Below are positions 4,319-35,160 of a DNA stretch of 39,004 nucleotides, one piece after another. This stretch comes from Shigella phage SFP21A. Each line of letters begins with the position of its first letter. Within the stretch, counting starts at the first letter, position 1. The stretch lies in sequence record OQ031074, one strand, 5' to 3'. The position numbers and the translations under genes were made by a program. The notes under the pieces are model-generated. The model ran no database searches and was not told the DNA's origin. It saw only the letters and a program-made list of their open reading frames with translations.

Positions 4319-4342
4319 CTAATTGAATGGCCTATAGTTTCA

Positions 4343-14439: not shown

Positions 14440-14699
14440 CGCAGATGGACTTAGAGAAGTTCCTGTTAATGCTGGACACTGAACGTGCAAGACTTATGCT
14501 GCAAGACCTGCGGGATGACTCCAAGCGTTCACCTCAGCTTTATAACGCCATCGAGAAGCTGCTAGCTCGCCACAACTTTGTGCTCAGCAAGGTGTCTGTG
14601 GATGAGAAACAGTTAGCTGACATGGAGGCGCTGAACAGGGAGTACGATAAGGTGCTCTCAGCTACTGAGGATAATGACACCGGGTATGGTGTACAGTAA
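14436..14699 (+). CDS. 18: terminase small subunit (gp18)
   Basis: 87 aa; conserved LLMLDTE, RSPQLYNAIEKLLARH as in T7 gp18; directly upstream of the lysis/terminase block. Confidence 0.8.
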   Translation: MTQMDLEKFLLMLDTERARLMLQDLRDDSKRSPQLYNAIEKLLARHNFVLSKVSVDEKQLADMEALNREYDKVLSATEDNDTGYGVQ

Positions 14700-14756
14700 G
14701 TGTTAGACTCAAGGTCATTACCACTATATGTAGTGGCCTTTATGATTAACACACAC
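14699..14756 (+). ncRNA. RNase III-type processing hairpin (conserved motif copy 1)
   Basis: AGACTCAAGGTCAT..CCACTA-TATG-TAGTGG..CCTTTATGATTAAC: upper stem, internal loop and lower stem. The same flanking motif recurs at 24397 and 31047. Confidence 0.55.
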
Positions 14757-17106: not shown

Positions 17107-17129
17107 ACTTAACTATCACTATAGGGAAG
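17107..17129 (+). promoter_or_regulatory. phage RNAP promoter after gene 19 (phi-OR-like), +1 about 17124
   Basis: ACTTAACTATCACTATAGGGAAG; position equivalent to T7 phi-OR near the right genome end. Confidence 0.75.
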
Positions 17130-17489: not shown

Positions 17490-18060
17490 ACGGACCTAAG
17501 GTCAGTTCATAGCTGACGCTACTCTACTGACCTTAGCTACTGTAGTCAAGGACTTTAGGTAATACCCTAATAGAAGCTCACTTAGGGTCATCCTACTCAC
17601 TGGTCTACCCTAGTGTCGCCTGACCTACGGTCCTTGACCTACAGTGGCTGAGGCCTACAGTAGGGACGATGAGTTTTGGACCAAAAGTTTGAGACCACAT
17701 CTCACAGTTCAAGAACCTCAAGTCTCCCCATAGGGTCACTTCCAGTCAGACCAAAGGCCACCACCCCTAGACCTTCGGTCTAAACCTCAAGTCATTGACC
17801 CGAAGTCGACCCGAAGTCTGGACCGATAGGGCCTATATCTTGTGGTTGGGACGATGGGTCGGGACTATATGTTGTGTCTCCGAGTCCCTATCTGTATCAG
17901 CCTCAAGTCATCACCTTCAGTCTCACTACCTACAGTCATCGACCATCGGTAAAGCCGCTACCTACAGTCATCGACCTACAGTCAGTAGACACCATGTTGA
18001 CCTACAGTTTATCAGAGTCCTAAGGTCTAGACTCACAGGTTATCACATCCGGTCCGTTTA
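17490..18060. repeat. non-coding terminal region: short direct/inverted repeat arrays flanking a putative collapsed direct terminal repeat (about 17700-17889)
   Basis: Inverted repeat CCTAAGGTCAG / CTGACCTTAGG (17495-17537). Repeated CCTACAGT/GACCTACAGT units (17620-17660, 17930-18015), CCTCAAGTC x3, tandem GACCCGAAGTC x2 (17800-17822), 19-bp CTACCTACAGTCATCGACC x2 (17926-17975). 17700-17889 begins TCTCACAG.. and ends ..TCCCT, like the T7 160-bp terminal repeat as recalled. Confidence 0.5.
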
Positions 18061-18210: not shown

Positions 18211-18240
18211 TTGACAGTGGGTCTAACTTTTGGTTTAATA
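18211..18240 (+). promoter_or_regulatory. host sigma70-type early promoter (T7 A1-like)
   Basis: TTGACA (18211-18216), 17-nt spacer, TTTAAT (18234-18239). Surrounding sequence resembles the T7 A1 region (GTCTAAC..). Confidence 0.65.
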
Positions 18241-18354
18241 GCTTCCGTCAACACGACACGGCAAACACCGGATAGTGAAGACGCCGGGTCGGTCCGGTTA
18301 AGTAGTCAGCCTGTAAGACATACGAAAAACAGGCAACCGACAGAAAGAAAGTAG

Positions 18355-18385
18355 TTGACAAGCAGTAACGACTTAAAGTAGTATG
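18355..18385 (+). promoter_or_regulatory. host sigma70-type early promoter (T7 A2/A3-like)
   Basis: TTGACA (18355-18360), ~17-18 nt spacer, -10-like GTAGTAT, then ATGTACCACATCGAAACGACAGTGAG, very similar to the transcribed region of T7 A3 as recalled. Confidence 0.65.
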
Positions 18386-18535
18386 TACCACATCGAAACG
18401 ACAGTGAGGCCTAACACTGAAACAGGCTAGCGAGGCGACGACAGCCAAGCGAATGCTCTTTAACAATCTGGATAAACTCTTAATGTGCGCCGATAGTAAG
18501 CGATTAACTCAAGAGACTTGTTGGCTACTGCGGGT

Positions 18536-18578
18536 CAGGCTCAAGATGAGCGCCTAAGGTCTCTTTATGATAATCACT
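18536..18578 (+). ncRNA. putative RNase III site upstream of gene 0.3 (R0.3-like)
   Basis: GGCTCAAGATGAGCGCCTAAGGTCTCTTTATGATAATCACT resembles the T7 R0.3 region (CTCAAGG..CCCTTTATGATATTCACT) and the window's own hairpin motif. Confidence 0.4.
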
Positions 18579-18597
18579 CACTTAAAGGATACACATC

Positions 18598-19050
18598 ATG
18601 ATTTACACTAACGAACCAGCTAACGTCTTCTATGTGCTCGTGTCAGCCGCTCGTGCTGGACTGTCAGACATAGTGAACATGGGCCGTCAGTTAGACCTTA
18701 AGGCACTGCTACAAGCTGAGCCAGACTACTACGGTGTGCTCGAATGCACTGGGCTTACAGGATGCTACCGCGAGGAAGGGCAAGAGGTCGCCACTGAGGA
18801 GAGAACATATCGTGTGCGCTGTGAGTCCAAAGCTCAGGCTATCAACGTTGCGCGGCTGGCCTGCAATGACTTTGAGCAAGACTGCGTGATGGTCTACAAG
18901 TCTCAGACTCACACGGCTGGCCTGATGTTCTGCAAAGGTCTGGATGGCTACCGCACTGAGCGCCTGCACGGGTCATTCCAGCAAGTCGATGCGCCCAAGG
19001 GTGAATGCTTCACGAAAGACGCTGAAGGACGCTTCTGGGAGGTTGTGTAA
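18598..19050 (+). CDS. 0.3: S-adenosyl-L-methionine hydrolase/lyase (T3 gene 0.3-type anti-restriction protein)
   Basis: 150 aa; N-terminus MIYTNEPANVFYVLVSA.. and blocks TGCYRE, RVRCESKAQAINVARLACN, QDCVMVYKSQTHTAGLMF match the T3 SAMase as recalled; first gene after the sigma70 promoters; RBS AAAGGA. Confidence 0.75.
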   Translation: MIYTNEPANVFYVLVSAARAGLSDIVNMGRQLDLKALLQAEPDYYGVLECTGLTGCYREEGQEVATEERTYRVRCESKAQAINVARLACNDFEQDCVMVYKSQTHTAGLMFCKGLDGYRTERLHGSFQQVDAPKGECFTKDAEGRFWEVV

Positions 19051-19380: not shown

Positions 19381-19424
19381 GTGTTAACTGATTGTCACTT
19401 AACCACAAGAAGGAAACACACGTA

Positions 19425-20159
19425 ATGAACGCACACGATAAAGTAATCATGAATAACCTGATGTCTCAACTTCACGCTATAATCTGCGAGGAGTGCTACA
19501 AGATTGAAGACCCGTTCGCTGGCATAGCTGGTCAGCCACGCTGGGGAGCCTTTGAGATACTGGCCCGTGAGCATGGCTACAAGCTGTTAGGTCTGGGACA
19601 CTTCGCCGCTGCCTTTGAGCATGAGGACCTGCCGGGATATGCAATAAAGGTGGGCTTCAAGAAGGATGACTCAGGCGCTGCATATGCGGCCTTCTGCCGA
19701 GAGAATGAGGGTCTGGCTGGACTTCCGGTCATCCATCTGGTCAAGCGCTTCAGCAGGGCTTACATGGTGGCTATGGACAAGTACCGCTCACTGAATGACA
19801 TTGGTGGTGACTACTGCCGGGATGGTGAGACCTACGAGCAGCGAGTATTAAACGTGTCATGGCGTGTGGTCAACGCGATAATAGACCATTGCGAGCAACC
19901 GTCTGAGGCCCTGAGCTGGTGGCTGGACCAAGACGCACGGGCTGAGTTTGCACACGTCGAGGCTCAGTATATCAAGGACCTTGCGCAGACCGCTAAGAAG
20001 ATTAACAGTTTCTTCTACGGGCTGGCATCATTCGACACTCACCGCGCTAACGTGATGGTCGACAATAACGGGCGCTTGATAATCACGGACCCAGTGTCAT
20101 GGACCGCAATCGACCATCAAGATGAGCTGCAAGGAAAGCTGAATGCAATAGCTGAGTGA
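19425..20159 (+). CDS. 0.7: serine/threonine protein kinase (gp0.7 homolog), kinase domain only
   Basis: 244 aa from ATG 19425 (RBS AAGGAAAC); blocks GLGHFAAAF, IKVGFKKDDSGAAYAAFCR, GLASFDTHRANVMV, ITDPVSW match the T7 gp0.7 kinase domain; lacks the ~110-aa C-terminal shut-off region of T7 gp0.7. Confidence 0.8.
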   Translation: MNAHDKVIMNNLMSQLHAIICEECYKIEDPFAGIAGQPRWGAFEILAREHGYKLLGLGHFAAAFEHEDLPGYAIKVGFKKDDSGAAYAAFCRENEGLAGLPVIHLVKRFSRAYMVAMDKYRSLNDIGGDYCRDGETYEQRVLNVSWRVVNAIIDHCEQPSEALSWWLDQDARAEFAHVEAQYIKDLAQTAKKINSFFYGLASFDTHRANVMVDNNGRLIITDPVSWTAIDHQDELQGKLNAIAE

Positions 20160-20165
20160 TAGACG

Positions 20166-20190
20166 AGAGGCCACTACATCTAGTGGTCTC
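20166..20190 (+). ncRNA. stem-loop after kinase gene (possible RNase III site)
   Basis: GAGAGGCCACTACATCTAGTGGTCTC: stem CCACTA/TAGTGG shared with the hairpin at 14720; no U-tract, so a processing site is more likely than a terminator. Confidence 0.35.
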
Positions 20191-20224
20191 AAAGATTATT
20201 ACTCACAACATATAGAGGTGAACT

Positions 20225-20314
20225 ATGAACATTGGTTACTGGGTGTGCCTATCTCCGGTAATATTCCTGATAGCCTTCGGTCTTCTGGACGCAATCAAGC
20301 GAGGGTCATTATAA
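20225..20314 (+). CDS. hypothetical 29-aa hydrophobic peptide
   Basis: MNIGYWVCLSPVIFLIAFGLLDAIKRGSL; RBS GAGGTGA 7 nt upstream; stop overlaps the next start (TAATG). Confidence 0.3.
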   Translation: MNIGYWVCLSPVIFLIAFGLLDAIKRGSL

Positions 20315-20508
20315 TGGGCTGGCTACTTCTGGTCATCGGCTATGGTCTGATAGCTGCAATCCTTGCTAAGGACATAACCAAGGCACGTAAAGTCTACCGC
20401 TTCCAGTACGTATCACTGGGCCGCTGGACTGTAAGACAACCAAACGGACGCTTTATGCGCAACCTCGCAAACGTCTGGGACATCGCAACCTTAGGGAGTA
20501 AACTGTAA
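20314..20508 (+). CDS. hypothetical small membrane protein
   Basis: 64 aa with N-terminal TM segment (MGWLLLVIGYGLIAAILA) and basic tail; stop overlaps the next start (TAATG). Confidence 0.4.
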   Translation: MGWLLLVIGYGLIAAILAKDITKARKVYRFQYVSLGRWTVRQPNGRFMRNLANVWDIATLGSKL

Positions 20509-20834
20509 TGAGCAAGTCATATGGGATTAATCTGGTTCATGCGCTGGACGCAGACCTTAACCTACTTTCAGCACTGGCTACAGGCTACCGTCACGGGACC
20601 TCAAGTCACACCATTCGTCAGCAGCAGGAGCGCGACCGGGTGCTGCAAGCAAGACTCCGGGCCGAGGGCCAAAAGTCCGAGCTGATGTGTCTGGCGTATG
20701 GTGGACGACCTCGCACTGACGATGGTAAACTTCTGGTCTCAGGCTGGAGGGCGATAGACCAGCGGTCCGACATCAAGCATACATCCAAAGGAGACTTCAG
20801 CCATCTCCATGCTAACCCACTGATATGCAAGTAG
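20508..20834 (+). CDS. hypothetical early protein
   Basis: 108-aa ORF; RBS GGGAG upstream; no recognisable motif; directly upstream of the RNAP promoter/leader. Confidence 0.5.
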   Translation: MSKSYGINLVHALDADLNLLSALATGYRHGTSSHTIRQQQERDRVLQARLRAEGQKSELMCLAYGGRPRTDDGKLLVSGWRAIDQRSDIKHTSKGDFSHLHANPLICK

Positions 20835-20839
20835 TTTGG

Positions 20840-20862
20840 ACTAAACTATCACTAAAGGACTC
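20840..20862 (+). promoter_or_regulatory. phage RNAP promoter variant (..CTAAACTATCACTAAAGGAC), +1 about 20857, upstream of gene 1
   Basis: Exact 14-nt match to the upstream consensus, but CACTAAAGG instead of CACTATAGG (T3-like -2 base); followed by a structured leader. Confidence 0.5.
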
Positions 20863-20937
20863 AAGGTCGAAAGACTCTAAGTCAGGACTGAAGTGAAAGA
20901 CTTTAGTGATAAGACAACAGTTATAAGGACTTTAAGT

Positions 20938-23619
20938 ATGAGCGTCATCTCAATTGACAAACACGACTTCTCTGATGTGTCGAATGCAATCGAACCTTTC
21001 AACGTACTGGCGGACCACTACGGACAAGACCTAGCAGTCAAACAGCTCCAGCTAGAGCATGAGGCATACACTGAAGGTGAGCGACGTTTCATTAAGAACC
21101 TTGAGCGTCAGACTGAGCGCGGGGAACTGGCAGACAATCAGGTTGCTAAGCCACTGATGCAAACGCTGGTCCCGACCCTCGCTAAGGCTGTGCGTGAGTG
21201 GCATGAAGGCCCGGACGGTAAGTCCTCGACCTCGCGTCCAAGCGTAGCGTTTACCATGCTAAGCACTGATGAGAAGGCCGTCAAAGACCGCACTCTGCGC
21301 ATCTCCGCCGAGTCTGCTGCGGTCATCATACTGAAAGTAATCCTCAGCAAGCTGGTAAAGCCTGAAGGCATTCCGATAACTCCTATGGCGTCCGCGATAG
21401 GTCGCACACTGGAAGATGAAATCCGCTTTGGTCGCATCCGTGAGCAGGAGCAGGAGCACTTCAAGAAGACCATAGCGGAGAACCTGAAGAAACGCGCTGG
21501 CGCAAGCTACAAGAAAGCCTACATGCAGGCGGTCGAGGCGTCTATGCTTGAGCAGGGGCAACTGGCTGACGCGTGGGGGACTTGGAGTCCGACCGAGGCA
21601 GTTCACGTAGGCATCAAGATGCTAGAGCTGGTCATCCAGTCATCGCAACTGGTCGAGCTGAAGCGCTACGGTGCGGGGAATGCAGCAGCGGACGTCGAGA
21701 TGGTTCACCTGTCTGACTTCTGGGTCAAGAAGATGGCTCAGCGTGGCTTCTCTCTGGCGGGAATTGCCCCAGTTTACCAGCCATGCGTCGTGCCACCTAA
21801 GCCGTGGACCGGGGTGGTTGGAGGTGGGTACTGGGCTAAAGGTCGCAGGCCACTACCTCTGATTCGCTTAGGGTCTAAGGCTGCGGTCCAGCGCTACGAA
21901 GACGTGTACATGCCTGAAGTGTACGAGGCCGTGAACATCATTCAGCAGACTCCTTGGAAGGTAAACAAGAAGGTGCTGGAAGTGGTTAACATGGTCGAGA
22001 AGCTGAATAACACGCCTATCGCTGACATCCCTCAGATGGAGCCGCTGAAGCCTGAAGACTATGCGGGTGAGACCGAGGAGGAGCTTAAGGCTTGGAAGAA
22101 ATCTGCGGCTGGCATCTATCGACGCGAGAAGGCACGACAGTCTCGCCGTTTATCGCTGAGCTTCATCGTCTCACAGGCTAACAAGTTCTCTCAGTTCAAG
22201 GCCATCTGGTTCCCGTACAACATGGACTGGCGAGGTCGTGTTTACGCTGTCCCGATGTTCAACCCTCAGGGCAACGATATGCAGAAGGGCCTGCTGACTC
22301 TGGCGGTAGGCAAGCCAATCGGTGCGGACGGCTTCAAATGGCTGAAGGTACACGGTGCAAACTGCGCGGGTGTCGATAAAGTCACCTTTGAGGAGCGCAT
22401 CAAGTGGGTTGAGGACAATCACGACAACATCCTCGCGACTGCTAAGAGTCCGATGGATAGCATTGACTGGTGGGGCCAGCTAGACTCTCCGTTCTGCTTC
22501 CTCGCGTTCTGCTTTGAGTATGCCGGGGTTATGCACCACGGGCTGAGCTACTCCTGCTCTCTGCCTATCGCGTTCGATGGGTCCTGCTCTGGGATTCAAC
22601 ACTTCAGCGCCATGCTCCGTGACCACGTTGGTGGACATGCGGTAAACCTAACGCCTTCCGGTAAGGTCCAAGACATCTACCGCATTGTGTCCGACCGGGT
22701 GGAAGAACAGCTCAAGGAACTGCTGGTCAACGGCAGTGACAACGAGGTGAAGACCTTCGAGGACAAGAAGACAGGCGAGATTACTGAACGTCTGGTCCTT
22801 GGGACCCGTGAGCTGGCCCGACAGTGGCTGACCTACGGGATGTCACGCTCGGTCACTAAACGCTCGGTCATGACTCTGGCCTACGGGTCGAAGGAATACG
22901 GGTTCGCGGACCAAGTGTTTGAGGACACCGTGATGCCAGCGATTGACAGTGGCAAGGGCGCAATGTTCACCGACCCAAGCCAAGCGTCTCGCTTCATGGC
23001 TAAGATGATATGGGACGCTGTGAGTGTGACCGTAGTGGCTGCGGTGGATGCAATGAAGTGGCTTCAGGGTGCGGCTAAACTGCTGGCTGCCGAGGTCAAG
23101 GACAAGAAGACCAAAGAGGTCCTTAAGCCTTGCCTCCCGGTTCACTGGGTAACGCCTGATGGATTCCCGGTCTGGCAGGAATACCGCAAGAAAGACACCA
23201 CACGTCTGAACCTCCTGTTCCTTGGGTCGTTCAACCTGCAACCGACAGTCAACAAAGGGTCGAAGAAAGAGCTGGATAAGCACAAGCAGGAATCCGGTAT
23301 CAGCCCTAACTTTGTACACTCACAGGACGGCAGTCACCTGAGGAAGACTGTAGTCCACACCCACCGCAAGTATGGCGTGATGTCATTCGCGGTGATTCAC
23401 GACAGCTTTGGAACCATCCCGGCAGACGCTGAGTTCCTGTTCAAGGGAGTCCGTGAGACGATGGTCGAGACCTACCGCGACAACGATGTGCTGCAAGACT
23501 TCTACGAGCAGTTCGCAGACCAGCTTCATGAGAGCCAGCGCGACAAGTTGCCAGAGCTACCGAAGCGCGGTAAACTGAACATCGAAGACATTCTGTTATC
23601 TGACTTTGCATTCGCCTGA
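20938..23619 (+). CDS. 1: DNA-directed RNA polymerase, single-subunit (T7 gene 1 homolog)
   Basis: ~893 aa from ATG 20938; extensive near-identity to T7 RNAP blocks (PCVVPPKPWTG, RYEDVYMPEVY, AIWFPYNMDWRGRVYAV, MFNPQGNDM, SPFCFLAFCFEYAG, AFDGSCSGIQHFSAMLRD, VTKRSVMTLAYGSKE, HDSFGT, C-terminal DFAFA). Confidence 0.97.
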   Translation: MSVISIDKHDFSDVSNAIEPFNVLADHYGQDLAVKQLQLEHEAYTEGERRFIKNLERQTERGELADNQVAKPLMQTLVPTLAKAVREWHEGPDGKSSTSRPSVAFTMLSTDEKAVKDRTLRISAESAAVIILKVILSKLVKPEGIPITPMASAIGRTLEDEIRFGRIREQEQEHFKKTIAENLKKRAGASYKKAYMQAVEASMLEQGQLADAWGTWSPTEAVHVGIKMLELVIQSSQLVELKRYGAGNAAADVEMVHLSDFWVKKMAQRGFSLAGIAPVYQPCVVPPKPWTGVVGGGYWAKGRRPLPLIRLGSKAAVQRYEDVYMPEVYEAVNIIQQTPWKVNKKVLEVVNMVEKLNNTPIADIPQMEPLKPEDYAGETEEELKAWKKSAAGIYRREKARQSRRLSLSFIVSQANKFSQFKAIWFPYNMDWRGRVYAVPMFNPQGNDMQKGLLTLAVGKPIGADGFKWLKVHGANCAGVDKVTFEERIKWVEDNHDNILATAKSPMDSIDWWGQLDSPFCFLAFCFEYAGVMHHGLSYSCSLPIAFDGSCSGIQHFSAMLRDHVGGHAVNLTPSGKVQDIYRIVSDRVEEQLKELLVNGSDNEVKTFEDKKTGEITERLVLGTRELARQWLTYGMSRSVTKRSVMTLAYGSKEYGFADQVFEDTVMPAIDSGKGAMFTDPSQASRFMAKMIWDAVSVTVVAAVDAMKWLQGAAKLLAAEVKDKKTKEVLKPCLPVHWVTPDGFPVWQEYRKKDTTRLNLLFLGSFNLQPTVNKGSKKELDKHKQESGISPNFVHSQDGSHLRKTVVHTHRKYGVMSFAVIHDSFGTIPADAEFLFKGVRETMVETYRDNDVLQDFYEQFADQLHESQRDKLPELPKRGKLNIEDILLSDFAFA

Positions 23620-23911: not shown

Positions 23912-24382
23912 ATGTTCTTTAACTCCGCACTGAAAGCACGTATCGCAGAACTTGAGTCACGACTGAAGATTAAAGACGCAACTAACGAGAGGCTCTTTGA
24001 GAAGATGGGAAAGTACGTCTCGAAGGTTTCAGAACTGGAGAAGCAGATTGAGTCTAAGCGTGAAGTCGAGCCGTTCCATGTTAAGCGTATGGTCGGCCTG
24101 AAGTTCAAGGCGCTATTCAACGGTCTCTACCAGCCGACTGAGTTCAAGACCGGGCCGGGACCATGCGGAAAGACGGTGACGCACTTCACCACAAGTCGAG
24201 ACGAACGGACCCTGACCATCCACCAGCACCACACGGATGGGTCCAGCAAGAGCTTCGAGTATCGACTGAGTGACATCGACGGTCGCATCCAGTACGACTA
24301 CGAGAACGTGATGGTCTACGGAGAAGAGGCAGAACGCGAGCGAGCACACTACGTCTTCCTGAGACGCCAGCGCTTCGCCTAA
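23912..24382 (+). CDS. hypothetical protein with N-terminal coiled-coil
   Basis: 156-aa ORF, RBS GAGG upstream; N-terminal heptad-like region (ARIAELESRLKIKDATNERLFEKMGKYVSKVSELEKQIE); no recognised catalytic motif. Confidence 0.55.
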   Translation: MFFNSALKARIAELESRLKIKDATNERLFEKMGKYVSKVSELEKQIESKREVEPFHVKRMVGLKFKALFNGLYQPTEFKTGPGPCGKTVTHFTTSRDERTLTIHQHHTDGSSKSFEYRLSDIDGRIQYDYENVMVYGEEAERERAHYVFLRRQRFA

Positions 24383-24400
24383 ACTATCACTATAGGATTA
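24378..24400 (+). promoter_or_regulatory. phage RNAP promoter (CCTAAACTATCACTATAGGATTA), +1 about 24395
   Basis: Consensus match; immediately followed by an RNase III-type hairpin. Confidence 0.75.
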
Positions 24401-24446
24401 GACTCAAGGTCATGACACAAAGTCGTGGCCTTCATGATTAACCCTA
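24397..24446 (+). ncRNA. RNase III-type processing hairpin (conserved motif copy 2)
   Basis: AGACTCAAGGTCATGAC-ACAAA-GTCGTGGCCTTCATGATTAAC; the stem GGUCAUGAC/GUCGUGGCC pairs with G-U wobbles; same flanks as 14699 and 31047. Confidence 0.55.
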
Positions 24447-26034: not shown

Positions 26035-26070
26035 AACCCAGTGGTCTTCGCGGACTGCTGGGTTTCTTTG
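26035..26070 (+). terminator. intrinsic terminator after ligase (early terminator TE-like)
   Basis: 12-bp stem AACCCAGTGGTC / GACTGCTGGGTT (with G-U pairs), 6-nt loop, then U-rich TCTTTG; position equals T7 TE after gene 1.3. Confidence 0.7.
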
Positions 26071-26091
26071 CGTCTGGGCCACCATCCCGAC

Positions 26092-28148: not shown

Positions 28149-28369
28149 CTAAAGAAGTGCAGGTAGTCCGCGAGCGCCTGACCATTGATAAAATCCCAGT
28201 GGGCTACGCGTTCATCGTTCATGGTCGACCGGACGAAGTGTACGTGAAGATTAGCAACTCGCACGTCTTCAACCATAAGCGCCTACAGATGCACACGACT
28301 GTTAGCGAGCGCTTCAAGTCTCACCTGAATCTCGTAATCGTCGAGCTGGTGGTGTACAATGGTAAGTAA
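28145..28369 (+). CDS. hypothetical protein
   Basis: 74-aa ORF, RBS AAAGGAG, start overlaps the gp3 stop (ATGA); fills the gap between endonuclease and amidase. Confidence 0.5.
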   Translation: MTKEVQVVRERLTIDKIPVGYAFIVHGRPDEVYVKISNSHVFNHKRLQMHTTVSERFKSHLNLVIVELVVYNGK

Positions 28370-28817
28370 GGTTCAGTTCAAACCGCGTACAGTAACTGAC
28401 GCAATCTTCGTCCACTGTAGTGCGACCAAACCATCTCAGGACATCGGGGTAGACACTATCCGCATGTGGCACAAGCAGCAGGGCTGGCTGGACGTAGGCT
28501 ATCACTTCGTCATAAAGCGTGATGGCACTGTGGAAGAAGGCCGCCCGGTCGATGTAGTAGGGTCCCACGTTAAGGACTGGAACTCCCGGTCCGTAGGCGT
28601 CTGCCTTGTAGGTGGAATTGACGCCAAGGGCAAGTTTGAAGCCAACTTCACTCCTGCTCAGATGAGCGCTCTACGCAACAAGCTGGCTGAACTGAAGACG
28701 CTGTACCCTCAGGCAGACATCAAGGCTCACCACGATGTAGCACCAAAGGCTTGCCCAAGTTTTGACTTGCAGCGCTGGCTGAATACTAACGAACTGGTCA
28801 CTTCCGACCGAGGCTAA
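28359..28817 (+). CDS. 3.5: N-acetylmuramoyl-L-alanine amidase / T7 lysozyme (gp3.5)
   Basis: 152 aa; very close to T7 gp3.5 (VQFKPR, DAIFVHCSATKPSQ, QGWLDVGYHF, KRDGTVE, GSH, SVGVCLVGGID, KGKFEANFTPAQM, APKACPSFDL, NELVTSDRG). Confidence 0.93.
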   Translation: MVSKVQFKPRTVTDAIFVHCSATKPSQDIGVDTIRMWHKQQGWLDVGYHFVIKRDGTVEEGRPVDVVGSHVKDWNSRSVGVCLVGGIDAKGKFEANFTPAQMSALRNKLAELKTLYPQADIKAHHDVAPKACPSFDLQRWLNTNELVTSDRG

Positions 28818-30867: not shown

Positions 30868-31032
30868 GTGTTTAAGAAACTTAAAGCCCGATACCACACG
30901 TTCATGTACAAGTGGTGGAACGAGGAGGCCAACTGTCTGTCCCGAATCCTTGGAGACCAGCGGTTTGACTCTAAGGCGTGGAAGCGAGCGAACCAGAAGT
31001 TCATGTATCACTTCCTGCGTATCGACTACTAA
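30868..31032 (+). CDS. hypothetical protein (gene 4.x position)
   Basis: 54 aa from GTG 30868 (VFKKLKARYHTFMYKWWNEE..), with GGAGGA 8 nt upstream; ends just before the next promoter. Confidence 0.4.
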   Translation: MFKKLKARYHTFMYKWWNEEANCLSRILGDQRFDSKAWKRANQKFMYHFLRIDY

Positions 31033-31050
31033 GCTATCACTGTAGGATAG
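31028..31050 (+). promoter_or_regulatory. phage RNAP promoter variant (ACTAAGCTATCACTGTAGGATAG), +1 about 31045
   Basis: Consensus upstream half; -2 T>G; immediately followed by an RNase III-type hairpin and gene 5. Confidence 0.6.
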
Positions 31051-31090
31051 ACTCAAGGTCATTCACTTCGAGTGGCCTTTATGATTAGAC
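31047..31090 (+). ncRNA. RNase III-type processing hairpin (conserved motif copy 3)
   Basis: AGACTCAAGGTCATTCACT-TCG-AGTGGCCTTTATGATTAGAC; same conserved flanks as copies at 14699 and 24397. Confidence 0.55.
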
Positions 31091-31103
31091 TATAGGAGAC
31101 ATT

Positions 31104-33275
31104 ATGATTGACTTACAGAACATCTGGGGTTCGGACATCGAGACCAACGGTCTTCTTGATACCGTGTCCCAGTTCCACTGTGGGGTCCTGATTAACGCCG
31201 AGTCGAATGAGACCCTGAAGTATGGGGTAGCTCCGATGGTAGGTATCGTCGGTGGCTTCAAAGAGTATGTGCAGAAGGTCGAAGAGATTGCAGCCACACC
31301 GCATGGACTTCTGGTCTTCCACAACGGGATTAACTATGACGTCCCGGCTATTGACATTCTGAAGCGTAAGTATTTCGGTAAACGTTTTAACTTCCCGAAA
31401 CACAAGATGATTGACACGCTGGTCATGGGCCGCCTGATGTACCCGAACATTAAGTTCTCGGACATGGGTGCTGTGAAAGCTGGTCGTCTCCCACCTAAGA
31501 TGATGGGACGACAGTCTCTTGAAGCATGGGGCTACCGTCTCGGTGAGATGAAGGGTGAGTACAAGACCGATTACATTGCCAAGTGCAAGGCAGAAGGCAT
31601 CGAATATAAGGCTGGCGACGAGTGGTTGTTCCCGAGCCAAGAGATGCTTGACTATAACGTCCAAGACGTTGTGGTCACTCTGGCCCTGTTCAAGAAGTTC
31701 CTTACCGACAAGTTCTACTTCGGGTCTCCTGAGGCCGGACTTGAGGCTGTGTACGCACTGCGTCTCGAACATGATTCTGCGTGGACATGCGCTAAGATGG
31801 AGCGTAACGGCTACCCGATGAACTCGGAGATAGTCGAGGGCTTGTATCGTGAGCTATCAGTCAAACGTGCAGAGCTTTTAGATAAGCTGCGGTCGACGTT
31901 CGGTAGTTGGTATTCACCTAAGGGTGGCAAAGAGTTCTTCAAGCACCCACGAACCGGGGTAGACCTGCCGAAATACCCGCGAGTCATCTACCCGAAGGTA
32001 GGGGCAATCTTCAAGAAGCCGAAGAACAAAGCTCAGCGCTTAGGTCTGGAGCCTTGCGAACGAGACTCACGAGATACGATGGAAGGCGCACCGTTCACAC
32101 CGATTACCTTCGTTGAGTTCAATCCGGGCAGTGGCGACCACTTAGCTAAGGTTCTGATGGACCGGGGCTGGGAACCTACTGAGTTCACGGATACAGGTAA
32201 GCCTAAGTGTGATGACGAAACTCTGGAGCACGTTAAGCTGGCAGACCCAGAAGCTCAGGCTTGCGTAGAGCTGGTCCGTGAGTATCTGGTGGTCCAGAAG
32301 CGCATTGGTCAGGCGGCTGAAGGTAAGAACGCATGGCTTCGACTTGTGGGTCCTGACGGAAGGATGCACGGGTCGATTAACCCATGTGGTGCTGTAACCG
32401 GACGTGCGACTCACAGTTCACCTAACATGGCTCAGGTCCCGGCTAACGGTGCTCCTTGGGGTGAAATCTGCCGAAGTGCTTTCGGTGCTCAGTGGAACAA
32501 GAACAATGGCAAGCCAGACCCGTGGATTCAAGTTGGGGTCGATGCCTCAGGCCTTGAACTCCGTTGTCTGGGGAACCGTGCGTCCCCGTTCGATGGTGGT
32601 GAATATGCGAAGACTGTGGTCGAGGGAGACATCCACTGGGCTAATGCGGTCAACGCCGGGTTAGCACCTAACGTCCCACGCGATAAGTCCAGCCACGACC
32701 ACGATGCGTTCCGTAACAACGCCAAGACGTTCATCTATGCGTTCCTGTATGGTGCAGGGGCCGCGAAGATTGGACTGATAGTTGGCGGTGGTAAGAAGGA
32801 AGGTTCCGCCCTGATGAAGAAATTCATTGAGGGTACACCAGCTATCAAGGACCTGCGAGAGGCGGTGCAAAACACGCTCATCTCCGAGTCCAAGTGGGTA
32901 GATGGTGAGAACATCGTGAAGTGGAAACGCCGCTGGCTTAAAGGTCTGGACGGTAGACGTATCCACATCCGGTCTCCACACTCAGCACTTAACGCCTTAC
33001 TTCAGGGCGATGGTGCGGTAGTATGTAAGCACTGGATTGTCGAGACTGAACGTATGCTCGAAGAGGCCGGGTATGTCCACGGCTGGGAAGGAGACTTTGC
33101 GTACATGGCATGGGTCCACGACGAATTGCAGATTGCGTGTCGTACTCAGGAGATTGCCGAAGAAGTCGTCAAGATTGCTCAACTTGCTATGCGTAAGGTG
33201 GGTGAGTTCTATAACTTTAAATGCGTCCTTGATACCGAAGGTAAGATTGGACCAACGTGGAAGGAGTGTCACTAA
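31104..33275 (+). CDS. 5: DNA polymerase (gp5), family A with 3'-5' exonuclease
   Basis: 723 aa; blocks DIETNGLL, KFHCGV, LVFHNGINYDVPA, EAWGYRLGEMKGEYK, DYNVQDVVVT, FGSWY, VEFNPGS, GAVTGRATHSSPN, DASGLELRCL, NAKTFIYAFLYGAG, KRRWLKGLDGR, YMAWVHDE as in T7 gp5. Confidence 0.97.
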   Translation: MIDLQNIWGSDIETNGLLDTVSQFHCGVLINAESNETLKYGVAPMVGIVGGFKEYVQKVEEIAATPHGLLVFHNGINYDVPAIDILKRKYFGKRFNFPKHKMIDTLVMGRLMYPNIKFSDMGAVKAGRLPPKMMGRQSLEAWGYRLGEMKGEYKTDYIAKCKAEGIEYKAGDEWLFPSQEMLDYNVQDVVVTLALFKKFLTDKFYFGSPEAGLEAVYALRLEHDSAWTCAKMERNGYPMNSEIVEGLYRELSVKRAELLDKLRSTFGSWYSPKGGKEFFKHPRTGVDLPKYPRVIYPKVGAIFKKPKNKAQRLGLEPCERDSRDTMEGAPFTPITFVEFNPGSGDHLAKVLMDRGWEPTEFTDTGKPKCDDETLEHVKLADPEAQACVELVREYLVVQKRIGQAAEGKNAWLRLVGPDGRMHGSINPCGAVTGRATHSSPNMAQVPANGAPWGEICRSAFGAQWNKNNGKPDPWIQVGVDASGLELRCLGNRASPFDGGEYAKTVVEGDIHWANAVNAGLAPNVPRDKSSHDHDAFRNNAKTFIYAFLYGAGAAKIGLIVGGGKKEGSALMKKFIEGTPAIKDLREAVQNTLISESKWVDGENIVKWKRRWLKGLDGRRIHIRSPHSALNALLQGDGAVVCKHWIVETERMLEEAGYVHGWEGDFAYMAWVHDELQIACRTQEIAEEVVKIAQLAMRKVGEFYNFKCVLDTEGKIGPTWKECH

Positions 33276-35098: not shown

Positions 35099-35160
35099 TT
35101 AGGACCTAAGTTATGACTATAAGATAAACTTAAGTTAATACTTTAAGAGGAGACTTTAAG

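What the first reader, a model, noticed from the sequence alone, without database searches (positions are those of the whole stretch)
20840..20937. Variant phage promoter with T3-like core upstream of the RNA polymerase gene
A promoter copy with a perfect upstream half but CACTAAAGG core (T3-like -2 base) sits ~80 nt upstream of gene 1, followed by an imperfect hairpin (CTCAAGGTC-GAAA-GACTCTAAG). In T7 no phage promoter precedes gene 1, which is transcribed only by host RNAP. A functional promoter here would give autogenous positive feedback on polymerase synthesis, with the variant core perhaps keeping it weak.
Basis: partly seen in the sequence, partly recalled or inferred. Interest (0 to 1): 0.45.

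Follow-up and report, generated by a model that had tools for sequence, protein, structure and literature searches.

The report
Known phage promoter before polymerase gene
This is a real and almost certainly working copy of the phage's own promoter sitting just in front of its RNA polymerase gene, but it is a conserved, already annotated feature of K1F-like phages, and its one odd base probably does not weaken it.

Summary
The window is a circularly permuted K1F-like phage genome (genus Kayfunavirus). Positions 20840-20862 (+) are one of 12 same-strand copies of the phage promoter CTAAACTATCACTATAGGR. The predicted start is G20857, 81 nt before the RNA polymerase ATG at 20938, and A replaces T at -2 (20855).

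The site is not new. About 219 GenBank relatives and 18 IMG/VR contigs carry a promoter at this position. It is annotated as a promoter in EcoDS1 and CR44b.

The site follows polymerase specificity. Kayfunaviruses with a T3-like specificity loop (D748/R756) have a T3-like promoter here, as at the other 11 sites. This argues strongly that it is used.

Self-amplifying transcription of gene 1 is therefore likely, as proposed for phages phiA318 and LUZ100.

T7 does have a co-directional phage promoter upstream of gene 1 (phiOL), which this genus lacks. And -2 T>A keeps about 88% of wild-type activity in a T7 promoter library, so "kept weak" is unsupported.

The local hairpin is allele-specific and is not a T7/T3-type RNase III site. 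A strong site of that type lies at 20155-20204.

Interest is low.

The parts
20840..20862 (+). Phage RNA polymerase promoter (-17 to +6), K1F specificity class: ACTAAACTATCACTAAAGGACTC. It is the leftmost phage promoter on the physical genome.
   Evidence: One of 12 family members. Leave-one-out PWM score is 28.5 bits, against 14.6 bits for the best non-family hit. Homologous to the annotated 'promoter phi' at EcoDS1 2244-2266 and the 'predicted promoter' at CR44b 1814-1836.
20855..20855 (+). The -2 position: A instead of the family's T (T3-like).
   Evidence: position table: 11 T and 1 A. Fixed in the 'type B' allele, found in 5 IMG/VR loci and about 33 GenBank records.
20857..20857 (+). Predicted transcription start (+1 G of GGACTC).
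   Evidence: Register taken from the alignment with the other 11 copies and with T7/T3 promoters. Inferred, not measured.
20858..20883 (+).
   Evidence: -8.1 kcal/mol, z = -2.1. Present only in the type B allele and absent from the RNAalifold consensus of 14 leader variants.
20859..20868 (+). 5' arm of the only pairing shared by all leader variants (ACUCAAGGUC). Same motif as the 5' arm of T7/T3 RNase III sites.
   Evidence: RNAalifold consensus and pair counts: 99.2% of cells paired, no covariation because both arms are invariant. Motif compared with T7 R1.1.
20928..20937 (+). 3' arm of that pairing (GACUUUAAGU), lying between the Shine-Dalgarno AAGGA (20925-20929) and the AUG.
   Evidence: The stretch GGACTTTAAGTATG is identical to the stretch just before the T7 gene 1.1 start codon.
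20938..23619 (+). Gene 1, single-subunit RNA polymerase (893 aa), with a K1F-type specificity loop RLNLLFLGSFNLQ.
   Evidence: 93.5% identity to K1F gp1 and 63% to T7 gp1.
20508..20834 (+). Upstream small ORF (108 aa, gp0.38-like). Its stop codon lies 5 nt before the promoter.
20155..20204 (+). T7/T3-type RNase III hairpin directly after the kinase gene. It is the positional equivalent of R1.
   Evidence: Covariance model hit of 25.1 bits, E = 0.001. Fold of -25 kcal/mol, z = -5.5.
18211..18385 (+). Host-type (sigma-70) early promoters that must provide the first gene 1 transcripts.
   Evidence: Aligned to EcoDS1 'host RNAP promoter' features. TTGACA-18-TAGTAT at 18355.
26035..26064 (+). Early terminator TE, the likely end of the transcription unit that starts at 20857.
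   Evidence: 28 of 30 identity to the annotated EcoDS1 TE.
28359..28814 (+). gp3.5 amidase/lysozyme homologue, the likely brake on the polymerase (inferred from T7).
   Evidence: tblastn, 96.7% identity to the SFP21B amidase.

Best explanation
Positions 20840-20862 are a functional promoter for the phage's own K1F-type RNA polymerase. It is the leftmost phage promoter of a genome that has no phiOL. Proposed sequence of events: host RNA polymerase, starting at the early promoters near 18211-18385, makes the first gene 1 message. The new phage polymerase then starts at G20857 and transcribes its own gene, probably continuing through genes 1.05-1.3 to TE at 26035. Polymerase synthesis is thereby amplified (an inferred positive feedback loop) until general controls shut class II-type promoters down. 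By analogy with T7, that control would be the gp3.5 lysozyme homologue encoded at 28359-28814. The -2 A is a nearly neutral A/T swap in the melting segment, fixed in one allele of the intergenic region, and is not an attenuating device. Shown here: sequence membership, position, conservation, and co-variation with polymerase specificity. Inferred: initiation at 20857, the feedback, and the brake.
For: Family membership: 12 copies, 0 expected by chance, all on the + strand. The PWM score is 28.5 bits, rank 9 of 12, with a wide gap to the best background hit at 14.6 bits. Conservation: K1F, 18 IMG/VR contigs and 219 GenBank records have a promoter at the same place. The middle of the leader has diverged into two alleles that are 60-80% identical over the 116-nt query. 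Co-variation: Kayfunaviruses SFP21B and vB_CtuP_B1 carry AAACCCTCACT(A/G)TAGG at this site. In SFP21B all 12 syntenic sites are T3-like, and its polymerase loop reads RLDLMFLGTFRLQ (D748, R756), against RLNL(L/M)FLGSFNLQ in the window and K1F. The site therefore follows the enzyme that reads it. Tolerance of -2A: about 0.88 of wild type in a T7 library. T3 uses A at -2 natively. SFP21B phi4 also has TAAA. The same site reads TTTA in Mt1B1_P3 and TGTA in vB_CtuP_B1. No terminator-like site lies between 20857 and 20938. Independent annotators marked the homologous site as a promoter in EcoDS1 and CR44b. Precedent: LUZ100 phi1 directly upstream of its RNAP was mapped by ONT-cappable-seq, with positive feedback proposed (PMC10134795). 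phiA318 has a phage promoter upstream of its kinase and RNAP genes, with autoregulation proposed (PMC4099482).
Against: I found no transcript, in vitro transcription or reporter data for any Kayfunavirus (one search found none, and Scholl & Merril 2005 is not held). The -2A measurement is for T7 RNAP on a T7 promoter, not this enzyme. The start GGACTC differs from the GGGAGA of the strongest promoters, so its strength is unknown. The quantitative weight of feedback, relative to host-driven transcription of gene 1, is also unknown. The promoter could be kept mainly for other jobs such as genome entry, class II gene transcription or replication priming.
Confidence: 0.72

Rival explanations
1. 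The promoter's main job is not polymerase autoregulation. As the only phage promoter left of gene 1.1 in a genome without phiOL, it lets the phage polymerase take over genome internalisation and transcription of genes 1 to 1.3. It may also prime replication, as T7 phiOL and phi1.1A/B do. Extra gene 1 mRNA would then be a by-product.
For: There is no phiOL in the window or in EcoDS1. T7, T3, K11 and BA14 have phiOL plus a promoter straight after gene 1. In this genus the next promoter comes only after gene 1.05, at 24372. The leader is AT-rich, 38% GC against 52.6% for the genome. The roles of T7 promoters in DNA entry and origin function are established knowledge recalled from memory, not tested here.
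Against: This is not exclusive of feedback, since any transcript from 20857 must cross gene 1. No origin features were tested. Nothing in the sequence separates these roles.
Confidence: 0.3
2. One reading: the -2 A deliberately weakens the promoter so that feedback on polymerase synthesis stays mild.
For: It is the only one of the 12 copies with A at -2, and it scores below 8 of the other 11. The allele is fixed in a subclade.
Against: The -2 T>A variant is about 88% of wild type in the T7 library. Roughly 180 of 219 relatives have consensus TATA at this very site, so weakness is not a conserved requirement. Three other promoters in the same genome deviate more.
Confidence: 0.12
3. The leader that follows the promoter is an RNase III processing site, the R1 of this phage. 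This would repeat the promoter-plus-R-site pairs of T7 and T3.
For: +3 to +12 (ACTCAAGGTC) is the same motif as the 5' arm of T7 R1.1 and of three canonical sites in the window. In T3, promoters phi1.1 and phi1.3 abut R1.1 and R1.3. The whole leader folds at -19.7 kcal/mol, z = -2.0.
Against: The 3' arm GTGGCCTT(T/C)ATGATT is absent. A covariance model built from 9 T3, T7 and window sites found two extra sites in the window (20155-20204 and 18531-18579) but nothing in 20857-20937, even at E <= 10 with filters off. The K1F-type leader folds no better than shuffles, z = -0.3.
Confidence: 0.1
4. It is a dead relic or a chance copy of the promoter with no function.
For: Nothing beyond the absence of direct transcript data.
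Against: 0 expected by chance. It is conserved at the same place in more than 200 genomes. It has been converted to the T3-like specificity class in lineages whose polymerase changed.
Confidence: 0.03

Closest known systems
Annotated 'phi' promoter upstream of gene 1 in Escherichia phage EcoDS1 (NC_011042, 2244-2266), the 'predicted promoter' in Citrobacter phage CR44b (HG818823, 1814-1836), and the homologous site in K1F (NC_007456, about 2473-2495)
   Same: Same genus, same position (about 70-80 nt before the gene 1 ATG, straight after the preceding ORF), same -16 to -5 specificity sequence, identical +1 to +12 (GGACTCAAGGTC) and identical last ~20 nt of the leader.
   Different: Those phages have consensus TATA at -4 to -1 and T rather than A at -14. 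The middle of the leader is a different allele with indels.
LUZ100 phi1 (Pseudomonas T7-like phage) and phiA318 phi-A8 (Vibrio phage): phage-specific promoters upstream of the RNAP gene
   Same: A cognate promoter directly upstream of the phage RNAP gene, with positive feedback or autoregulation proposed. The LUZ100 start site was mapped experimentally (PMC10134795; PMC4099482).
   Different: They belong to other genera with unrelated promoter sequences. LUZ100 couples the promoter to a MarR-like repressor and a lysogeny module, which are absent here. In phiA318 the promoter also precedes the kinase gene.
T7/T3 phiOL and class II promoters (phi1.1A/B, phi1.3)
   Same: A 23-bp promoter with a -5 to +2 CACTATAGG core, a GGA-type start as in T7 phi1.1B, location inside the early region upstream of TE, and the downstream ACTCAAGGTC motif found after T7 phi1.1A.
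   Different: phiOL lies left of the host promoters, about 2.7 kb from gene 1. T7, T3, K11 and BA14 have no phage promoter directly before gene 1. T7 and T3 instead have a minor E. coli promoter C there, and T3 annotates RNase III site R1.
Engineered T7 autogene (T7 gene 1 under a T7 promoter; Dubendorff & Studier 1991, recalled from memory and not checked here)
   Same: A polymerase gene driven by its own cognate promoter, forming a positive feedback loop.
   Different: It is an artificial plasmid construct that needs tight repression. Here the loop is natural and runs inside a lytic cycle that kills the cell anyway.

Membership tests
Studiervirinae phage-RNAP promoter, K1F specificity class | About 23 bp matching the genome's own repeated consensus (CTWAACTATCACTATAGGR) | tested here: met
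   22 of 23 positions match the majority base. Leave-one-out score is 28.5 bits, and the family is 12 copies against 0 expected.
Studiervirinae phage-RNAP promoter, K1F specificity class | Same strand as the genes, at an intergenic position or the 3' end of a gene | tested here: met
   + strand. It starts 5 nt after the stop of ORF 20508-20834 and the +1 is 81 nt before the gene 1 ATG.
Studiervirinae phage-RNAP promoter, K1F specificity class | Bases -12 to -8 fit the specificity loop of the polymerase encoded in the same genome | tested here: met
   The window and K1F loop (N748, N756) go with ACTAT. The SFP21B loop (D748, R756) goes with ACCCT, at this site and at the other 11.
Studiervirinae phage-RNAP promoter, K1F specificity class | A/T-rich -4 to -1 melting segment followed by +1 GG | tested here: met
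   TAAA then GGA. Variants TTTA, CTTA and TGTA occur in sister promoters.
Studiervirinae phage-RNAP promoter, K1F specificity class | Specific initiation by the cognate polymerase | not testable with these tools
   This needs in vitro transcription or 5'-end mapping. No such data were found in the held literature.
T7/T3-type RNase III processing site | Upper stem AAGGTCA...GTGGCCTT flanked by a lower stem (conserved sequence plus structure) | tested here: not met
   Covariance model R1 gave no hit in 20857-20937 at E <= 10 with filters off, yet it found 20155-20204 and 18531-18579. The 3' arm is absent from the sequence.
T7/T3-type RNase III processing site | A hairpin significantly more stable than shuffled sequence | tested here: inconclusive
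   The window leader gives z = -2.0 and the K1F leader z = -0.3. Canonical sites give z = -3.1 to -5.5.
Natural polymerase autogene (cognate promoter driving the phage RNAP gene, as in LUZ100 phi1) | A cognate promoter upstream of the RNAP gene, co-oriented, with no terminator between | tested here: met
Natural polymerase autogene (cognate promoter driving the phage RNAP gene, as in LUZ100 phi1) | Gene 1 transcripts that start at the phage promoter during infection | not testable with these tools
   No transcriptome is available for this genus.

The most novel reading that the evidence does not exclude
Kayfunaviruses may have swapped the T7-group left-end promoter phiOL for a promoter fused to gene 1, making polymerase synthesis obligatorily self-amplifying. 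The invariant pairing between the first 12 nt of that transcript (20859-20868) and the stretch between the Shine-Dalgarno and the AUG (20928-20937) could then give the phage-made gene 1 mRNA a 5'-terminal helix. That helix would set its stability or translation apart from the host-made read-through mRNA, acting as a post-transcriptional governor on the feedback loop. The type B allele (-2 A plus the GNRA hairpin) would be one tuning state of it.
Probability: 0.12. Interest if true: 0.4.

Novelty: already known. Interest (0 to 1): 0.18.

Why it matters
If the promoter fires as predicted, K1F-like phages run a natural polymerase autogene that T7 and T3 lack. That bears on how quickly they switch from host to phage transcription. 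It also matters to anyone reusing K1F-type polymerase/promoter pairs as orthogonal expression parts. The site itself is already annotated in relatives, and the idea is already published for other T7-like phages. What this analysis adds is modest. It gives comparative evidence that the site is functional because it co-varies with polymerase specificity. It shows that the -2 A is probably neutral. And it places the RNase III R1 equivalent elsewhere, at 20155-20204.

Tried and rejected
(1) The K1F genome paper (Scholl & Merril 2005) and Chen & Schneider 2005 could not be read, because they are not held. I cannot say what they state about this promoter. (2) A literature search for single-base promoter mutagenesis returned irrelevant papers. 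A second search found Komura 2018, whose supplement gave the -2A values. (3) A search for Kayfunavirus or K1F transcriptomes or TSS maps found nothing relevant. (4) An IMG/VR scan for the 15-mer AACTATCACTAAAGG was too unspecific, giving 120+ mostly unrelated contigs, and was discarded. (5) The RNase III-site hypothesis for the leader was tested with a purpose-built covariance model and rejected for canonical sites. (6) Covariation support for the leader pairing was sought and not found, because both arms are invariant. The pairing stays a possibility only. (7) The simple sigma-70 scan found no host-type promoter next to gene 1 comparable to T7 promoter C. The two early host promoters were located by alignment to the EcoDS1 annotation, and the third EcoDS1 host promoter has no clear counterpart in the window.

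Full report
WHAT THE WINDOW IS. A 1.2-kb query around the finding matches 204 GenBank phage records. Nearly all are Kayfunavirus (K1F-like Studiervirinae), and the best hits are Salmonella phage ST57 and Enterobacter phage EP1 at 96%. The window is a circularly permuted whole genome. Alignment to the annotated EcoDS1 record places the terminal repeat at about 17700-17889. It places host-type early promoters at 18211 and 18355, the early terminator TE at 26035-26064, and phiOR at 17107-17129. Gene 1, the RNA polymerase, is 20938-23619 (893 aa) and is 93.5% identical to K1F gp1 and 63% to T7 gp1.

THE OBSERVATION. The window holds 12 copies of a roughly 20-nt element, CTAAACTATCACTATAGGR, all on the + strand. 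They start at 4337, 11622, 17101, 20834, 24372, 26086, 26937, 29034, 31022, 35070, 37889 and 38872 (26-nt frames). A 22-mer search with up to 3 mismatches finds 6 copies against 0 in 100 shuffles.

By synteny with EcoDS1 these are phi13, phi17, phiOR, the gene-1 promoter, phi1.1, phi1.6, phi2.5, phi4, an extra one before the DNA polymerase region, phi6.5, phi9 and phi10.

The copy in question spans 20840-20862 (-17 to +6), with +1 at G20857 and -2 at A20855. Positions -16 to -5 match the majority base at each position. The other 11 copies have T at -2. T3 promoters have A at -2. The leader to the ATG is 81 nt.

IS IT A REAL PROMOTER? Four lines of evidence bear on this.

(i) Score. The leave-one-out PWM score is 28.5 bits. 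That is rank 9 of 12, above the copies at 26086, 31022 and 29034. The best non-family hit in either strand of the window scores 14.6 bits.

(ii) Conservation. K1F has GACTTAACTATCACTATAGGACTCAAGGTC at the homologous place, and so do 18 IMG/VR contigs. The 116-nt region matches 219 GenBank records. Of these, 33 are at 95% identity or more (the window's 'type B' allele, with TAAA) and about 180 are at 60-80% (the K1F 'type A' allele, with TATA). Across 14 distinct leader variants, +1 to +5 and +9 to +12 of GGACTCAAGGTC and the last ~18 nt before the ATG are invariant. The middle of the leader differs by substitutions and indels.

(iii) Co-variation with the enzyme. This is the strongest argument. 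Shigella phage SFP21B and Cronobacter phage vB_CtuP_B1 are Kayfunaviruses whose site upstream of gene 1 reads ATTAAACCCTCACT(A/G)TAGGACTCAAGGTC, which is T3-like at -11 to -8. In SFP21B all 12 syntenic promoter sites are of this type and none is K1F-type. Its polymerase is 92% identical to the window's, but its specificity loop differs. It reads RLDLMFLGTFRLQ (T7 numbering D748, R756), against RLNL(L/M)FLGSFNLQ (N748, N756) in the window, K1F and EcoDS1. Residues 748, 756 and 758 are the published contacts to bases -11/-10, -9 and -8 (as summarised in PMC5937735). A site that is rewritten together with the other promoters when the polymerase changes specificity is being read by that polymerase.

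(iv) Independent annotators marked the homologous site as a promoter in EcoDS1 ('promoter phi', 2244-2266) and CR44b ('predicted promoter', 1814-1836). A 2026 description of Kayfunavirus Sparklingdew lists a promoter repeat at the 3' end of the gene preceding the polymerase gene (PMC13298934).

IS THE -2 A A WEAKENING CHANGE? Probably not. In the barcoded T7 promoter library of Komura et al., TAATACGACTCACTAAAGG gave RNA/DNA ratios of 161.2 and 137.7. Five wild-type barcodes gave 188.2, 188.1, 176.5, 152.8 and 141.6. The ratio of means is about 0.88 (PMC5937735 S2 File).

That measurement is for T7 RNAP, so it is an analogy, but the comparative data agree. T3 uses A at -2 natively, and SFP21B phi4 has TAAA. 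The gene-1 site itself reads TATA, TAAA, TTTA (Mt1B1_P3) or TGTA (vB_CtuP_B1) in different lineages. Sister promoters in the window read TTTA, CTTA and TGTA. The -4 to -2 segment is simply the least constrained part of the core. Most relatives carry the consensus at this very site, so a weak promoter is not a conserved requirement.

COMPARISON WITH T7 AND ITS RELATIVES. The T7, T3, K11 and BA14 records have no phage promoter directly before gene 1. T7 and T3 have the minor E. coli promoter C there, and T3 annotates RNase III site R1.

All four do have phiOL, a phage promoter left of the host promoters that points towards gene 1. The statement that no phage promoter precedes T7 gene 1 is therefore too strong.

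EcoDS1 has no annotated phiOL, and the PWM scan finds none in the window. In this genus the gene-1 promoter is thus the leftmost phage promoter. The next one comes only after gene 1.05, at 24372.

THE HAIRPIN AND RNase III. The whole leader folds at -19.7 kcal/mol with z = -2.0. The K1F leader is no better than shuffles, z = -0.3.

The motif ACTCAAGGTC at +3 to +12 is the same as the 5' arm of T7 R1.1. It also matches three canonical sites in the window, at 14699-14754, 24394-24445 and 31044-31093, two of which directly follow promoters. I built a covariance model from five annotated T3 sites, T7 R1.1 and these three window sites and searched the window with filters off.

Besides the training sites, the model found 20155-20204 (25 bits, E = 0.001). 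This hairpin folds at -25 kcal/mol with z = -5.5 and lies right after the kinase gene. It is the positional counterpart of R1. The model also found a weak hit at 18531-18579, before gene 0.3. It found nothing in 20857-20937.

The leader is therefore not a canonical RNase III site. It keeps only the 5' arm motif.

RNAalifold on the 14 leader variants returns a single shared helix. It pairs 20859-20868 with 20928-20937, the stretch between the Shine-Dalgarno and the AUG. This helix pairs in 99% of cells but has no covariation, because both arms are invariant. It is a possibility, not a finding.

MECHANISM. Shown: a cognate promoter lies 81 nt upstream of, and co-oriented with, the polymerase gene, and no terminator-like site intervenes.

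Inferred: host RNA polymerase supplies the first gene 1 mRNA from the early promoters. The phage polymerase then initiates at G20857 and transcribes its own gene and probably genes 1.05-1.3 up to TE, which amplifies polymerase synthesis. The GGA start and the position inside the early region make it class II-like.

By analogy with T7 (established knowledge, not tested here), the gp3.5 lysozyme homologue at 28359-28814 would damp such promoters later in infection. The same transcription would also help pull the genome into the cell and could serve replication. These roles cannot be separated by sequence.

NOVELTY. The site is annotated in two genus members. The region is 100% identical to several deposited phages, including Pisces, IMM-002 and BHUENT8. 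Self-amplifying polymerase transcription from a cognate promoter has been proposed for Vibrio phage phiA318 (PMC4099482). It has also been proposed for Pseudomonas phage LUZ100, where the start site was mapped experimentally (PMC10134795). The finding is therefore already known, and only the -2 A allele is a minor variant. I found no direct transcript data for this genus. The K1F genome paper could not be read.

VERDICT. Confidence that the promoter is used by the phage polymerase is about 0.7-0.75. Interest is low, 0.18.

Noticed in passing
window 20155-20204 (+): A strong T7/T3-type RNase III hairpin (-25 kcal/mol, z = -5.5; covariance model 25 bits) lies directly after the kinase-like ORF 19392-20159. 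It is the positional R1. Two small ORFs (20218-20508, 20508-20834) and the phage promoter lie between it and gene 1, unlike T7 and T3, where R1 abuts gene 1.
   Followed up: partly
window 35099-35127 (+): A decayed second promoter-like copy (CCTAAGTTATGACTATAAGATAA, 14.6 bits) sits a few bases downstream of the phi6.5 promoter. It may be a degenerate tandem promoter.
   Followed up: no
L033 (Shigella phage SFP21B, whole genome) and L027 (Cronobacter phage vB_CtuP_B1): Kayfunavirus contains two promoter-specificity classes at about 92% polymerase identity. One is K1F-type AACTATCAC with loop residues N748/N756. The other is T3-like AACCCTCAC with D748/R756 and a different AT-rich recognition loop. 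In SFP21B all 12 syntenic promoters have switched, a compact natural example of polymerase-promoter co-evolution.
   Followed up: partly
window 31022-31093 (+): A promoter (CACTGTAGGA) is immediately followed by a canonical RNase III-type site before the DNA polymerase region. EcoDS1 annotates no promoter there (11 against 12 promoters), but SFP21B has the equivalent site at 31376.
   Followed up: no
window 20859-20868 with 20928-20937 (+): The first 12 nt of the predicted transcript can pair with the stretch between the Shine-Dalgarno and the gene 1 AUG. Both arms are invariant in 14 leader variants, so covariation cannot test the pairing. The stretch GGACTTTAAGTATG is identical to the stretch just before the T7 gene 1.1 start codon.
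   Followed up: partly
window 18531-18579 (+): A weak covariance-model hit (15 bits, E = 0.3) for an RNase III-type site lies just upstream of the gene 0.3 homologue (SAM hydrolase, 18598-19047), at the position of R0.3. Its fold is no better than shuffled sequence.
   Followed up: no
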